NCBI RefSeq assembly: GCF_006345805.1
Contig: NC_043006.1
Span: 74,524,001-74,588,000, forward strand
Direction of reading: 5' to 3'
Length of the DNA: 64,000 nucleotides
From: Octopus sinensis
Taxonomy: Eukaryota
In this document: positions 3,978 to 61,670 of the stretch, piece by piece
How the letters are laid out: every line of letters begins with the position of its first letter
How positions within the stretch are numbered: the first letter of the stretch is position 1
Notes under the pieces: generated by a model
Told to the model about the DNA's origin: nothing
Database searches by the model: none
What the model saw: the letters and a program-made list of their open reading frames with translations, nothing else
Program-made: the position numbers and the translations under genes

Positions 3978-4285
3978 CGAAAACAATTGCAGTGTCGAAG
4001 GTGTTTATAAGCCATTTAAGAAACACACAAAAACCATTAGATTCACTTCAACATTTAAATTAAATTTGTCAAAATATTTTCGTCGCTTTGAGACCGCGAC
4101 CTGTTCAAATTCCGTGCTTGAAAAGGTCGCGGTCTCAAGCACGGAATTTTGTCAGTGAATAGGTCGCAGTCTCAAAGCGACGAAAATATTTTAACAAATT
4201 AAATTTAAATGTTGAAGTGAATCTAACGGATTTTGTGTGTTTCTTAAATGGCTTATAAACACCTTCCACGCTGCAATTGTTTTCG
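3978..4285. repeat. Fold-back inverted repeat (about 130-bp arms) with an inner hairpin, probably Penelope-derived
   Basis: 3978-4107 is the reverse complement of 4156-4285 with few mismatches. The spacer holds a second hairpin, aattccgtgcttga...tcaagcacggaatt. Each arm carries a hammerhead-like motif. Confidence 0.85.
4150..4196 (+). ncRNA. Minimal type I hammerhead-like motif, G3-Y8 core variant
   Basis: tgtca-GTGAATA-g-GTCGC(agtctcaaa)GCGAC-GAAA-atat-TT-taaca. The mirror copy (4067-4107, minus) has C at position 8 and a perfect tgaca 3' strand of stem I. Confidence 0.5.
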
Positions 4286-4917
4286 CATCTGTTATAATTT
4301 CTATATATAATTTTATCCTTCGTTTATATATTAAATATTATATTCATTGCTACAATATAATAAATATGCTAAAATGTAGTGAACACTTTTGCCTATTCTC
4401 TGAATGATTTCAACCACTATTTCCTAATATTCATTCCAGTAGGTCTTCCTCTTTTAACACGATAATCAAAATAAGTAGTATCAGCTCTTCCTATCTTTTC
4501 TTTTCTTCTACTTTTCACCGTTTCCCCATATCTCACGCCTTATTTGTAGATAAAGACGAATTTATTGTTCCATCACACATGATAGTTTAATAGGCCGACA
4601 TGATCTTAATCAATTTATCACCACTGACCAGAATACAATCACAACTCTCCTAAGACTTAATTCTAGACGGCTGGAGACAGTCCGCCCTCTTTTGTCTTGA
4701 AGTAGAGTTAAATGGGTCACTGATTTCAATTATTCCTTCCCCCTACTATAACCTCTATTATCCTCTAAATTCTATTTGATCTGATATGATATAAACTATT
4801 TGGTAAAGTCATTCTGCCAACTGAATAGCAGCAGAATCAATGTGTAAATTTTGGTTCTGTAGAATAGTGACTATGTTAAATCAGTCGAATTGTCGTTTAT
4901 ATCTATATGAAAGTATT

Positions 4918-5435
4918 TGAAACGTTAGCGCGCCGGGCGAAATGCTTAGCGGAATTTCGTCTGCCGTTACGTTGTGAGTTCAAATTCCGCCGAAGTTGAC
5001 TTTGCCTTTTATCCTTTAAAGGTGGCGAGCTGGCAGAAACGTTAGCACGCCGGGCGAAATGCGTAGCCGTATTTCGTCTGCTGTTACGTTCTGAGTTCAA
5101 ATTCCGCCGAGGTCCACTATGCCTTTCATCCTTTCGGGGTTGATTAAATAAGTACCAGTTATGAAGTGGGGTCGATATAATCGACTTAATCCGTCTGTGT
5201 GTCCTTGTTTGTCCTCTCTGTGTTTAGCTCCTTGTGGGTAGTAAAGAAATAGGTATTTCGTCTGCCGCTACGTTCTGAGTTCAAATTCCGCTGAGATCGA
5301 CTTTGCCTTTAATCCTTTCGGGGTCGATAAAAAAAGTACCAGTTACGCACTGGGATCGATATAATCGACTTAATCCGTTTGTCTATCCTTATTCGTCCCC
5401 TCTGTGTTTAGCCCCTTGTGGGTAGTAAAGAAATA
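4918..5435 (+). mobile_element. tRNA-derived SINE family A, multimeric (partial unit, headed unit, extra 184-bp unit)
   Basis: A-box-like ctggcagaaacgttagc and B-box gagttcaaattcc, central gactttgcctttcatcctttcggggtcgataa..agtaccagt. The unit repeats at 5070 and 5254. Flanked by aagtatt at 4911 and 5435. Confidence 0.88.
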
Positions 5436-7142
5436 AGTATTATTAAAATACCAACACGTGTGGCAAGCGAGCTATCAGCCGAACAAGCAAATAAATAAAA
5501 TATATACGTATTCTGTGGTGCAGAAGTATTTTTGACTTCTATTTTAGCGATGTAGGAGCTCATGTGGTGCCTTCGTGTATGTATATATATATATAGGTAC
5601 ATATGTTTTATGTATATTATATATATGTGTATGTGTGCATGTATATATATATGTGTGTGTGTGTGTTTGTATGTGCATGTATGTGTGCATGTGTGTGTGT
5701 ATTTGTGCATGTCGGGACGTATGTATATACACAATCATATACACGATATTCGTCTCAAAAAGATACTCTTCATTTGTAAACTACTTGCTGTGAGTCGTTC
5801 CATAGATAGAATCCGCCTTCAGTATAACATCTATTCATACTTTCAGAGTTTCTTCGAATATCAGTACTACTTCAATATACATGCTTGGCATTTTCAAGGA
5901 TGAATTCTGAGCAAGTGGCTTCGACTCTAATATCTTATAAGCTACGAAACGCGTTGATAATATATGACATACGAAACATAGTGCAACATATATCTAACAG
6001 CGTTTTCTCCTTCTACTTTTAATGTCTGCATATCGGAGGTATTTGAGTGAATGTGCACTTATGCATATATATATATATATATATATATATATATGTGTGT
6101 GTGTGTGTGTGTGTGTGTGTGTGTGTGTGTACATGTAAATGTACAAAAACACATACAAACACGCATACAGAAAAGCATATATATATGTATATATTATATA
6201 CATATATACGTATATATACATAATATGTATACATATATATGTATAAATACATATATATATATGTGTATATATATACTTGCATAAATATATGTATATATCA
6301 TATACATATATACTTATATATACATAATATATATACATATATATGTATAAATATATATATATGTGTGTATATATACTTGCATAAATATATGTATATATAT
6401 ATGTATATAAATACACTCAAACACATACACACAGACACATATACATACAAACATACATACATACATTATATATATGAGTGCGTGTTTATGTGTGTATTAG
6501 TGTTTCAGGAAAGAAATTCATATGAAATATGTACCAAACAAGGTCTAATGTGCAGAAACTAGCTAGAAAGAGTATATCATCTATTCTATTCGGTAGTGTG
6601 TCATTCATAGTTATTTCGTTAATTAACCTCAAAGAGGATAGGAACTTTGTGAAACAACATATTCACCATTGTTTAGTGTATGATTTTCGAAAGGCAAGTA
6701 CAGCTAAGAATCAATGAAAAACATTTGTAAAGTGTATCGGTATTCAGTGAAAGTTCGTAAATGTCGGTGTGGATTGAAAAAGTTACTCCCCGGAGGGGCT
6801 TCAGTCGTTGAAAGCGGTAGTGATTACACTCTTGATTAAAACTATTCAGATAAACGTAACTTACATTCGTTTATATATCTTTTCTGGTAAAACGCAAATG
6901 CTTTCCCAACACCCTAATATATTATATCTACATTATATATATATATATATATATATATATATATATATATATATTATATATATATATATATATATATATA
7001 TGAATGTATGTATATATATGAATGTATGTATGTATGTATGTATATATATGTATGTATTATATATATATATATATATATATATATATATATATATATATAT
7101 GAATGTATGTATGTATGTATATATATGTATGTATATATATAT

Positions 7143-7230
7143 ATATATACATGTATATATACATGTATATATACATGTATATATACATGTATATATACAT
7201 GTATATATACATGTATATATACATGTATAC
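7143..7230. repeat. 12-bp minisatellite (ATATACATGTAT)n within a TA/TATG microsatellite field (6933-7262)
   Basis: About 7 direct copies seen in the sequence. Confidence 0.85.
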
Positions 7231-8096
7231 ATATGTCTATATATATATGTGTGTGTGTGTACATTTACAAACAACTTGATATTTGGTAATAGAGAAGCTA
7301 TTTAATCAATCGTGTACCCCACCCCTAAATGGGGAGAGGCAAGGAAGACGAGAAGTTGGTGTCCATTACTTTTCTATCTAATCTGTAGTTACTGAACCGT
7401 TTTTGCTCATTATTCTTCGCGAACAGAACTGTCTTTTATTATGCAGAAGACCTGCACATTGTAGCAATATGAACGGTTATCCATTGCATACATTTAAAAT
7501 AAATTGAAATCGAATTTTCAAGATTTGAGCTGCATATGACTAAATCCTGTTAACAACACGGCGTTTCACTGTTTGACACCATTTATAATAAGTAAACGAT
7601 ACACATAATGTCAGACACATGATTATTTGAGATAACACATCTCGTATTTTAATATAACGTAAAGTGAAATTGAGGCGTGTGTTGGAATTAATAATGTTTT
7701 ACGTTGATACGACAACATACGCTGTTGTGTTTGTTTAATTTAAGACATAAGAATGATTAGATTCTGCTCTTTATTTACAAATGTATATCTCAATTAATAA
7801 CATCATTTTGCATCCTTAATATATATCTCTGATTGTTTCAAGCAGCGAAATAAAGGTGGTATATATATATATATATATATATATATATATACGCACATAC
7901 ATATGTGTGAGTGTGTGTGTGTGTGTGTTTATAGGCATGTGCGTGATTGTGTAAGTATACCTCCCTACATATCTCTGTATTTATTTATCAATATATGTAC
8001 ATGTGTGAGTCTATGTCTGTGTGTAAGTTATGTGTGTATGTGTGATTTCCTGTGTACGTATATTTGTATGCCTATGTATATGTATATTCATGTATA

Positions 8097-60360: not shown

Positions 60361-60404
60361 ATACACTTATATATATGTGTGTAAGTTTGTATGTATATGA
60401 TATA

Positions 60405-60790
60405 TATGCATATACGAGTACAGGACGTCACAAAACATAAACAACATGAAATACGAATACAAACTTGGGTATGCAACTAGGAGAAAAACAAATGGAAACA
60501 AGACAACATTATTCATCAGTTGTCGTCTGTCTACCTACTCCTCATTTCGAGCATTTAACAACAATATGAGGCTTCGAAAGGCAGTTGCTCCCGCAAACCA
60601 AGATAAAATTTAGAATTAGTGGATGGACAGCCGACAACTGATGAAGGGTCGTTCTTTATGTTCCTTGTCTTGTTTTCCATTTGTTCCGTTGTTGCATACC
60701 CAAATTTGTCTTCGTATTTCATGTTATTTTCGTATTTCATATTTCATGTTGCTTACGTATTGTGACGCCGTGTACCCGTATACGCATAAA
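60405..60790. repeat. Imperfect fold-back inverted repeat
   Basis: tatacgagtacaggacgtcacaa...caacatgaaata...ttgggtatgcaac...aaatggaaacaagaca...ttcatcagttgtcg is mirrored at 60629-60785. Confidence 0.8.
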
Positions 60791-61000
60791 TATATACATA
60801 TATATATATATCTAAGTATGTACATATATGTATATATGCATATTTATATATATATTATTTATATTATTATATGATTGTAAGCCACGCATCCATTTCCAAG
60901 TTTATCTTATATAAGAATATATATATATAATTACAAATATTGCATTTTTAAATGTCTCAGAGAGACTTATTCAGTAGCAGCACGATAAAGTGATGTACTT

Positions 61001-61277
61001 TGTTGGCAACATAGTGTGGCAGTCCCAGGACAGGAATGAAAGCTACTGCTATTTAGCCCCAGAAAAGACCGTTTCCAGTTGGCTATGTGACACATGCTGA
61101 CTGTCCTTATATTTTCCAACAGGGGAAATAAGCAGGTGCGATATCTCTCCTATTTGAAAACATAAGATCACAGTACGCACGCTTGTGTCACATAGCCAAC
61201 TGGAAACAGTGCTTCCTGTGGCTAGACAGCAGTACCATTCTTCCTTACCCTGGTACTGCTACATTAAGTTGGCAACA
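61001..61277. mobile_element. MITE-like element with about 95-bp imperfect terminal inverted repeats
   Basis: tgttggcaac...gtttccagttggctatgtgacaca versus tgtgtcacatagccaactggaaac...gttggcaaca. Confidence 0.75.
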
Positions 61278-61406
61278 AATCATCCCTTCATATATATATA
61301 TATATATATATATATATTATATATATATATATATATATACTTCGCTTTTAGATTCGGTTTGGAAGATTCTCCTATGTGAGTTCGTGTGTTTTGAAGCATA
61401 TTCTGT

Positions 61407-61670
61407 TGTGTTTGGAGAAAGTCATTTTCTTTTTGTACCTTATAATTTAACACACTACACTCACCAGTAAAATATCCGCTTATTCCATATTTTTATTTTC
61501 CTAAAATTTCATTGCGTTTTGCAACCTTTTCGATAGTCTTGACTCTTGAAGACTATTGAAAAGGTTGCAAGACGCAACGAAAATTTTAGGTAAATAAAAT
61601 AAAATTTTAGGAAAATAAGTGGAAATTTTAAATTATAAGGCACAAAAAGAAAATGAATCTCCCCACACAG
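61407..61670. repeat. Fold-back inverted repeat between (TA)n tracts containing a U3-A8 hammerhead-like motif (61553-61589)
   Basis: cctaaaatttcattgcgttttgcaaccttttcgatagtctt pairs with aagactattgaaaaggttgcaagacgcaacgaaaattttagg. Motif cta-TTGAAAA-g-GTTGC(aagac)GCAAC-GAAA-at-TT-tag. Confidence 0.75.

What the first reader, a model, noticed from the sequence alone, without database searches (positions are those of the whole stretch)
4067..61589. Dispersed hammerhead motifs in unrelated repeats show covariation at core positions 3/8 (C-G, U-A, inferred G-C)
Seen: seven motifs with the layout stem I-[N3]UGAN[N8]A-(extra purine)-stem II-GAAA-stem III-UH-stem I'. C3-G8 occurs at 8792(+), 12447(-) and 48939(+). 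U3-A8 occurs at 12079(+, degenerate), 35531(-) and 61556(+). At 4155(+) the core is GUGAAUA and its mirror arm has C8, implying an ancestral G3-C8. Stem II sequences are unrelated yet pair (GTCGC/GCGAC, GTTGC/GCAAC, AGTC/GACT, GGCTG/CAGCC, GAGC/GTTC). Established: 3-8 is a Watson-Crick tertiary pair, and PLE-associated minimal variants cleave as dimers. Inference: octopus hosts many distinct PLE families with non-canonical cores, some with unusual UUU triplets, that standard CUGANGA searches would miss.
Basis: partly seen in the sequence, partly recalled or inferred. Interest (0 to 1): 0.75.

Follow-up and report, generated by a model that had tools for sequence, protein, structure and literature searches.

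The report
Penelope hammerheads with swapped core pair
The seven motifs are copies of seven repeated elements, at least five of them Penelope-type jumping genes, that carry small hammerhead RNA motifs whose usual C-G core pair is swapped to U-A (known) or, in one recently active family with thousands of copies, to G-C, a swap I found in print only as a laboratory mutant; that these variants cut RNA is likely but untested.

Summary
Observation confirmed, with corrections. Each motif belongs to a high-copy family whose majority core keeps a Watson-Crick 3-8 pair: C-G (8792, 12447, 48939), U-A (12079, 35531, 61556), G-C (4155). The inferred G3-C8 is real: 5,840 exact genomic matches, control 0. 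Five families sit downstream of an RT/GIY-YIG Penelope ORF; 8792 is retrozyme-like; 48939 was not linked here. The repeats are not all unrelated. 4155 and 61556 are homologous Nematis-like families, and 4 of their 10 modelled pairs, 3-8 among them, changed on both sides. That is the best evidence that the fold is under selection. Family 12447 mostly reads CUGUUGA (A6U), so it is not canonical. U3-A8, the extra base, palindromic stem III and a UUU triplet are already published for Penelope hammerheads. I found natural G3-C8 in no paper, but could not read Lunse 2017. It matches the C3G/G8C rescue mutant of the anole element. Copies nearly always span the cut site, so they came from uncut RNA. 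Cleavage is untested. This scan noted the same swap in another genome (e1-8861128). New variant of a known kind; moderate interest.

The parts
3921..4285 (.). Head-to-head pair of 3' ends of PLE family F4155; the optional ~60-nt tail is on the left arm only
   Evidence: Inverted arms 3978-4107 / 4156-4285, 94% complementary; tail versus no tail in other copies
4148..4198 (+). Hammerhead motif of F4155 (N3 = 4155). Family core G3-UGAA-C8-A, extra G, stem II GUCGC/GCGAC, palindromic AUAU, UUU triplet, 7-bp stem I. This copy has C8>U and a stem I mismatch
4065..4109 (-). Mirror-arm hammerhead remnant: C8 kept, G3 and the 5' side of stem I deleted
8786..8846 (+). Hammerhead of F8792 (C3-G8, no extra purine, real stem III, AUA triplet) in a non-coding unit of about 380 nt, retrozyme-like
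   Evidence: same-strand partial tandems about 380 nt apart at two loci
12072..12119 (+). Hammerhead remnant of F12079 (U3-A8, U.U at the base of stem II, CCGG, GUC triplet); this copy has lost G12
   Evidence: Neptune-like ORF in the family
12422..12457 (-). Hammerhead of F12447 (N3 = 12453; C3-G8). This copy reads CUGAUGA; the family majority is CUGUUGA (A6U)
35506..35539 (-). Hammerhead of F35531 (N3 = 35537; U3-A8, A10.1-U11.1, CCGG, GUA triplet, 2-bp stem I); matches its family majority
   Evidence: Neptune-like ORF in L152
48790..48860 (+). tRNA-like head upstream of the F48939 hammerhead (resemblance by eye; ARAGORN calls no tRNA)
   Evidence: Shared head in the family alignment; negative
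48934..48979 (+). Intact minimal hammerhead of F48939 (C3-G8, extra A, CG, GUU triplet)
61553..61589 (+). Hammerhead of F61556 (U3-A8, extra G, stem II GUUGC/GCAAC, AU, UUU triplet, 3-bp stem I); matches its family majority
61507..61533 (-). Mirror-arm copy of the F61556 hammerhead (U4>C, stem II damaged)

Best explanation
The motifs are type I hammerhead motifs in the 3' terminal repeats of several Penelope-like retrotransposon families (one family is retrozyme-like), whose 3-8 core pair differs between families (C-G, U-A, G-C) and was likely kept paired by selection for a slow, likely protein-assisted self-cleavage. Shown: family cores, compensatory changes between related families, RT plus GIY-YIG ORFs upstream in five families, optional tails and inverted fusions, and copies spanning the cut site. 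Inferred: in the master elements the pair changed by double substitution while the fold was kept. The G3-C8 core would cut at a reduced rate, like the C3G/G8C rescue mutant, helped by the element's own protein or as a dimer in tandem transcripts. Most new copies are made from uncut RNA primed at two internal start sites. The dispersed window copies are neutral relics, three of them damaged.
For: Family cores. F4155 against F61556: 4 of 10 modelled pairs changed on both sides (3-8, two in stem I, one in stem II); 96.7% of cells pair; covariation 0.447 against 0.10 or so at best for slid partners (6 sequences). These two and a third family form one clade of C-terminal domains (FastTree local support 0.96, 50 sequences); the one copy of the third family has C3-G8 about 350 nt after its ORF. 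With 3 and 8 forced away from G and A, 349 matches remain; of the first 100, 1 is C-G, 0 are A-U, and the rest are unpaired or U.G, almost all one step from a family core. All 12 families seen pair 3 with 8; P = 1.8e-4 given the marginals, not corrected for kinship. Random 600 kb: 3 strict hits, all paired at 3-8, against 0.35 in shuffles. ORFs: 793 open codons in L422 with RT and GIY-YIG motifs read by eye, and three ORF copies 96.7-98.6% identical; L152, L428, L380, L385, L421. PMC11167929 (parts 1-2 of 4 read): C3G/G8C partly restores cleavage of the anole PLE hammerhead, cleavage needs the protein, and uncut RNA is the main insertion substrate. This matches the 5' ends here: 1 of 144 F4155 arms and 3 of 123 F61556 arms start within 5 nt of the cut site.
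Against: No cleavage was measured, and no read data could show RNA ends (contigs only). The lack of 5' ends at the cut site also fits inactivity. Several families carry further departures that lower activity in known hammerheads: A6U (F12447), A10.1-U11.1 and a 2-bp stem I (F35531), U.U at 10.1/11.1 (F12079), U17 (F4155, F61556). A U3.G8 subfamily of F61556 and G3.U8 copies of F4155 exist. The compensatory test rests on one pair of families, and the clade's C3-G8 state on one decayed copy whose stem III cannot be read. Pfam gave no hit for the L422 protein and mostly sub-cutoff hits for the others. F48939 and F8792 were not linked to an ORF.
Confidence: 0.62

Rival explanations
1. The fold is kept because the Penelope protein binds or primes on it, not because it cuts. 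The variant cores are nearly inactive, and 3-8 is held paired for shape only.
For: Hammerhead mutants do not affect insertion in vitro (PMC11167929). Copies come from uncut RNA. A successful family carries A6U. Naiads spread without canonical hammerheads (PMC8557442 passages).
Against: The 3-8 pair forms in the catalytic conformation (established knowledge, recalled). U4, G5, A6, A9, G12-A15.1 and U16.1 stay fixed between F4155 and F61556 while stems and loops change. The anole motif does cut with protein.
Confidence: 0.27
2. The pairing pattern is founder effect: a few master elements happened to have paired bases, and high copy number inflates the pattern without selection on the pair.
For: Families are related, so independent changes are few (about three or four). 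Copies evolve neutrally after insertion.
Against: Four double changes between two related families, all compensated. Twelve of twelve families pair. U-A occurs in two distant PLE lineages (25% identity).
Confidence: 0.08
3. The motifs are chance matches in AT-rich, palindrome-rich DNA.
For: Only 3 of the 7 pass a simple descriptor, and 4 other hits of that descriptor look like chance. No hammerhead family is among the 150 listed of 450 Rfam hits.
Against: Each motif is the fixed core of a family with hundreds to thousands of copies, placed near the 3' end of a PLE.
Confidence: 0.03

Closest known systems
Minimal type I hammerheads (min-HHR) of metazoan Penelope-like elements (Cervera and de la Pena 2014, PMC4209133; parts 1-2 of 4 of the text and part 2 of 3 of supplement 2 read; supplement file 1 not searchable)
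   Same: Position in the PLE terminal repeat, extra base between 9 and 10.1, palindromic minimal stem III, high diversity within a genome, U3-A8 (Schistosoma mansoni, about 1,300 hits), UUU triplet (Crassostrea row of Fig. S3), U3.G8 (Saccoglossus row).
   Different: No G3-C8 core in the Fig. S3 rows I saw. Here G3-C8 is the majority of a family with at least 5,840 copies and open ORFs, and one clade shows three 3-8 states. A6U, A10.1-U11.1 and U.U closings occur as family majorities.
PAc (Poseidon) hammerhead of Anolis and its C3G/G8C rescue mutant (Frangieh et al. 2024, PMC11167929; parts 1-2 of 4 read)
   Same: PLE hammerhead; tail between two RT start sites; inserts made from uncut RNA; a G3-C8 core cleaves in part.
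   Different: There G3-C8 is engineered; here it is natural. The families here are Nematis-like and Neptune-like, not Penelope/Poseidon, and have long CA-rich 3' UTRs.
Natural hammerhead core variants (Perreault et al. 2011, PMC3088659; section 8 and passages read)
   Same: U3-A8 covariation and a U10.1-U11.1 start of stem II are described as natural.
   Different: That section names no natural G3-C8 and no A6U; its examples are mostly microbial and phage.
Nematis and Neptune clades of EN+ PLEs (Craig et al. 2021, PMC8557442; passages, section 11, supplement passages and part 3 read; File S2 table not read)
   Same: C-terminal GIY-YIG with CCHH and a CX2-5CxxC linker, tails, inverted 5'-truncated copies, (TA)n targets. 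The short linker of F4155/F61556 matches the Nematis rows of Fig. S2 by eye; F12079, F35531 and F12447 have a longer spacer.
   Different: Clade labels are by motif layout, not by a tree with reference elements. The passages read give no core variants for these clades.
Metazoan non-LTR retrozymes (PMC7229834 passages; bioRxiv 10.64898/2026.07.22.740005 part 1 of 5)
   Same: F8792: unit of about 380 nt, non-coding, type I hammerhead with a real stem III, partial tandems.
   Different: Mostly dispersed monomers and inverted pairs; circular RNA not tested.

Membership tests
Type I minimal hammerhead of PLEs | Core N3-UGA-N-N8-A ... GAAA ... NUH in type I order | tested here: met
   Six of seven family majorities. 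F12447 departs at A6 (A6U).
Type I minimal hammerhead of PLEs | Watson-Crick pair between positions 3 and 8 | tested here: met
   7 of 7 window families and 12 of 12 families seen; double change between F4155 and F61556.
Type I minimal hammerhead of PLEs | Canonical C3-G8 identity (CUGANGA) | tested here: not met
   U3-A8 in three families, G3-C8 in one, CUGUUGA in one. U3-A8 is an accepted variant (PMC4209133).
Type I minimal hammerhead of PLEs | Stems I and II pair, with G10.1-C11.1 | tested here: inconclusive
   Met in F4155, F61556, F48939, F12447, F8792. F35531 has A-U and a 2-bp stem I; F12079 has U.U.
Type I minimal hammerhead of PLEs | Palindromic minimal stem III and a base between 9 and 10.1 | tested here: met
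   Palindromes AUAU, AU, CCGG, CCGG, CG, CG. Extra purine in F4155, F61556, F12447, F48939; absent in F35531 and F8792.
Type I minimal hammerhead of PLEs | Self-cleavage after position 17 (dimer or protein-assisted) | not testable with these tools
   No assay; only contigs were available. Copy 5' ends do not pile up at the site.
EN+ Penelope-like element | ORF with RT and C-terminal GIY-YIG on the same strand upstream of the hammerhead | tested here: met
   F4155 (L422, L424, L425), F35531 (L152), F12079 (L428), F12447 (L380, L385); for F61556 the C-terminal part only (L421).. Pfam RVT_1 above cut-off only for L427; GIY-YIG below cut-off.
EN+ Penelope-like element | Same ORF link for F48939 and F8792 | tested here: inconclusive
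   No linked PLE ORF recognised within 1.5 kb upstream in 30 loci each; longer copies were not sought.
EN+ Penelope-like element | Two 3' ends (optional tail), inverted head-to-head copies, AT-rich or (TA)n targets | tested here: met
   Two main 3' end classes in F4155, F35531 and F48939 and tails in F61556 copies; inverted pairs; TA runs after the 3' ends.
EN+ Penelope-like element | Full pLTR-ORF-pLTR copy with intact N-terminus | tested here: inconclusive
   L422 is open for 793 codons but is cut at an inversion junction; same-strand repeats in L151 and L305 held no PLE ORF.
Nematis clade (F4155, F61556) | Phylogenetic placement with reference Nematis RTs | not tested
   Only the linker layout was compared by eye with Fig. 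S2 of PMC8557442; my tree held unnamed homologs only.
Non-LTR retrozyme (F8792) | Short non-coding tandem monomer with a type I hammerhead | tested here: inconclusive
   About 380-nt same-strand spacing at two loci and partial tandems; no long arrays seen in 30 loci.
Non-LTR retrozyme (F8792) | Circular RNA intermediate | not testable with these tools
   No suitable reads.

The most novel reading that the evidence does not exclude
A recently active Penelope family with thousands of copies naturally uses the G3-C8 hammerhead core known so far only as a laboratory rescue mutant. One retrotransposon clade has moved through three Watson-Crick 3-8 pairs (C-G, U-A, G-C) while keeping an active ribozyme, and the U17 (UUU) site is what lets G3 work by avoiding a G3-C17 trap.
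Probability: 0.4. Interest if true: 0.6.

Novelty: new variant of a known kind. Interest (0 to 1): 0.43.

Why it matters
What Penelope hammerheads do is open: they cut poorly alone and are dispensable for insertion in vitro. Compensated swaps of a pair that forms in the catalytic fold argue that these motifs were selected as ribozymes, not just as hairpins. Related families with C-G, U-A and G-C cores, one with an open ORF, give a ready natural series for protein-assisted cleavage tests. In practice, CUGANGA descriptors miss five of the seven families in this window, so genome counts of hammerheads are too low.

Tried and rejected
Rfam scan: 450 hits, 150 listed, all listed ones microsatellite-driven and none a hammerhead; the other 300 were not visible, so it is uninformative. 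Window descriptor: its extra hits at 5907, 22461, 33921 and 47464 had no second copy in the loci held and were dropped. Same-strand pairs as full elements: L151 is a segmental duplication and L305 a tandem of host DNA. The Hydra-like ORF next to F12079 in L153 is on the opposite strand and has another 3' end, so it is not this family's ORF. An intron ending just before the F4155 hammerhead (branch-point-like motif and YAG in 590 long copies): rejected as the source of the sharp 5' ends, because the best upstream donor would give a junction that is not seen. An A3-U8 or second C3-G8 family with the F4155/F61556 stem II: not found. In-vivo cleavage from copy ends: three distinct loci have an inverted arm starting within 1 nt of the cut, but microhomology at the junction explains them equally well, and a fourth arm starts 1 nt past it in an A run. 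Sequencing runs: no RNA holder listed; contigs cannot show ends. Nematis-like relatives at L435, L436 and L438 gave no further hammerhead family. Papers not held: Lunse et al. 2017, Przybilski and Hammann 2007, Martick and Scott 2006. The first tree run failed at display and was redone with FastTree.
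Full report
1. Observation. All seven cores are present. The plus-strand coordinates mark N3; the minus-strand ones mark A9 (N3 = 12453 and 35537). A structure descriptor with positions 3 and 8 free finds 7 hits in the window against 1.65 +/- 1.28 in 40 local dinucleotide shuffles, and 4 Watson-Crick hits against 0.48. 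Only 8792, 48939 and 61556 pass it, and its four other hits have no second copy in the loci I held. Rfam listed 150 of 450 hits, none a hammerhead. The window alone is thus suggestive; the test is the families.

2. Families. The window lies in a 2.7-Gb animal genome. Each motif belongs to a repeated family. F4155: G3-UGAA-C8-A, extra G, stem II GUCGC/GCGAC, stem III AUAU, UUU, stem I UUUGUCA/UGACAAA. An 18-base pattern holding G3 and C8 has 5,840 exact matches, control 0; in BLAST-selected arms G3 is in 26 of 27 and C8 in 21 of 27 (the query carried U8). F61556: U3-A8 in 90 of the first 100 of 3,336 matches with 3 and 8 free. F35531 and F12079: U3-A8 (U3 22 of 23, A8 23 of 23; U3 30 of 31, A8 31 of 31). 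F48939: C3-G8 in 92 of the first 100 of 7,368. F8792: C3-G8 in 30 of 31. F12447: C3-G8, but the majority core is CUGUUGA (18 of 28 rows, CUGAUGA 2, four rows mis-anchored), and none of 5 random-sample copies has A6. Against their families, the window copy at 4155 has C8>U and a stem I mismatch, 12079 has lost G12, and 12447 has weakened stems; 35531, 48939 and 61556 match.

3. What carries them. Long copies lead upstream, on the same strand, into Penelope-like ORFs. F4155: L422 has 793 open codons with DKSG, YVDD, a CxxxCxxC linker and a GIY-YIG/CCHH end (read by eye; Pfam gave no hit); three ORF copies are 96.7-98.6% identical, so the family was active recently. F61556: a homologous C-terminal part, 42% identical. 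F35531 (L152), F12079 (L428 with ORF and hammerhead in one locus; L427 above the RVT_1 cut-off) and F12447 (L380, L385) have RT and GIY-YIG remains with a longer linker; F35531 and F12079 are 50% identical in RT and only 25% to F4155 (F35531). By linker layout, compared by eye with Fig. S2 of PMC8557442, the first two are Nematis-like and the other three Neptune-like. The families show PLE hallmarks described in PMC8557442: two 3' end classes (tail or none), head-to-head inverted copies and TA-run targets. The window's 4155 element has the tail on one arm only. F8792 is a non-coding unit of about 380 nt with a real stem III and partial tandems, closer to a retrozyme. F48939 has a tRNA-like head (ARAGORN negative); earlier notes such as e1-9829870 describe a tRNA-headed PLE in this genome, which I did not link to an ORF here.

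4. Covariation. The repeats are not all unrelated, and this helps. F4155 and F61556 align through the whole motif. Of 10 modelled pairs, 4 changed on both sides: 3-8 (G-C/U-A), two in stem I and one in stem II; 96.7% of cells pair, and slid partners give no double change (6 sequences, one family contrast). With a third family they form a clade (FastTree support 0.96 among 50 sequences), and the single, decayed copy of that family has CUGAUGA, extra G and a GUCAC/GUGAU stem II about 350 nt after its ORF; its stem III is unreadable. A pattern excluding G3 and A8 leaves 349 matches; among the first 100 there is 1 C-G and no A-U, and the rest are unpaired or U.G, almost all one step from a family core. 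Across 12 families seen in the window, flanks and random DNA (two single-copy C3-G8 motifs left out, L139 merged with F35531), all pair 3 with 8; P = 1.8e-4 given the marginals, but kinship cuts the independent events to about three or four. In 600 kb of random DNA a strict descriptor finds 3 motifs, all paired, against 0.35 in 20 shuffles; power is low.

5. Mechanism. Shown: fold-preserving double changes and the PLE context. Copies almost always span the cut site: 1 of 144 F4155 arms and 3 of 123 F61556 arms start within 5 nt of it, and none of 36 F4155 arms away from the query hit (many arms were selected on the hammerhead, and overlapping loci can repeat an arm). The few that start there are mostly inverted junctions with microhomology. 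PMC11167929 reports for the anole PLE that the tail lies between two internal RT start sites, that uncut RNA is the main insertion substrate, that the hammerhead cuts only with the protein, and that C3G/G8C partly restores cleavage lost in the single mutants. A review passage says the same of G8C and C3G (PMC8495972). Inferred: these motifs are slow, protein-assisted or dimeric ribozymes, selected in the master elements, and F4155 is the natural form of the rescue mutant. A passage in PMC3884650 (data not shown there) says a G3-C8 variant is more active with G17 than with C17; G3 may therefore be hindered by C17, which would favour the U17 of F4155. That is one case and a hypothesis; U3-A8 families occur with A17, C17 and U17. 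The main rival is a fold kept for protein binding with little cleavage.

6. What is known. PMC4209133 already reports U3-A8 in Schistosoma PLE hammerheads, the extra base, palindromic stem III and low dimer activity; its Fig. S3 has a UUU triplet in an oyster motif and no G3-C8 in the rows I saw. PMC3088659 section 8 reports natural U3-A8 and U10.1-U11.1. Searches for natural G3-C8 and for A6U found none, but Lunse et al. 2017, the largest survey of these variants, is not held, and supplements I could not see may hold it. This scan noted the same G-C/U-A swap in another genome (e1-8861128), A6U in this one (e1-9903561) and G3-C8 in a phage note (e1-5996897); these are unchecked AI notes, not support.

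7. Verdict. A real and correctly read feature. Most of it is known Penelope hammerhead biology. The new part is a natural G3-C8 core in an abundant, recently active family, with a clean compensatory contrast to a related U3-A8 family. New variant of a known kind; interest 0.43; cleavage untested.

Noticed in passing
L001-L030, L155-L184, L302, L341-L360 (F4155 copies): Short F4155 copies start sharply 51-60 nt before the cut site (62 of 144 arms). Of 17 short starts at AGATGCAGC, 11 have a G in front where long copies have C or T. This may be a cap-derived G at an initiator-like start. F61556 shows a similar pile-up (78 of 123 arms at -45 to -36).
   Followed up: partly
window 12422-12457 (-) and L362-L390: Family F12447 is a Neptune-like PLE with an A6U core (CUGUUGA); 4 of 5 copies covering the core in random DNA also have U6 and none has A6. 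The window copy has A6.
   Followed up: yes
window 12570-13100 (-): The sequence upstream of the 12447 element's shared 3' part is not shared with the family; it holds a 159-codon open frame without a Pfam hit.
   Followed up: partly
window 290-2160 (-): Fragments of a PIF1-like helicase (PF05970, E 4e-46), likely a Helitron.
   Followed up: no
window 21303-21632 (+): Exon of a rhodopsin-family GPCR (7tm_1); best PDB match is a GnRH receptor chimera, E 0.0017.
   Followed up: partly
window 5904-5962 (+): Hammerhead-like motif with a 7-bp stem II and CGCG palindrome but C3/C8; no copy in the loci held. It may be a decayed member of another family.
   Followed up: partly
L139, L112, L200, L298, L066, L300, L101, L162, L324, L028: Further hammerhead motifs in flanks and random DNA: U3-A8 (L139/L112, related to F35531 but with G10.1-C11.1; L200; L298) and C3-G8. 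L162-type copies often read CCGACGA (U4C, 7 of 16).
   Followed up: partly
G000:C1-C5 matches: A subfamily of F61556 with loop AAGAA has U3.G8.
   Followed up: no
L153:3344-5301 (+): Hydra-like PLE ORF fused head-to-head to the F12079 3' UTR, in three near-identical loci on C18.
   Followed up: partly
window 9756-10106 and 61863-62225: Two more long inverted repeats (126 nt, 90%; 109 nt, 100%), perhaps MITEs or inverted PLE ends.
   Followed up: no
window 49457-50779: Tandem array with a 73-nt unit and a 293-nt higher-order period.
   Followed up: no
L422:5570-5800 laid on runs X1, X11, X17: Contigs of three coded organisms hold F4155 with no other letter at positions 3 or 8 above 5%.
   Followed up: partly
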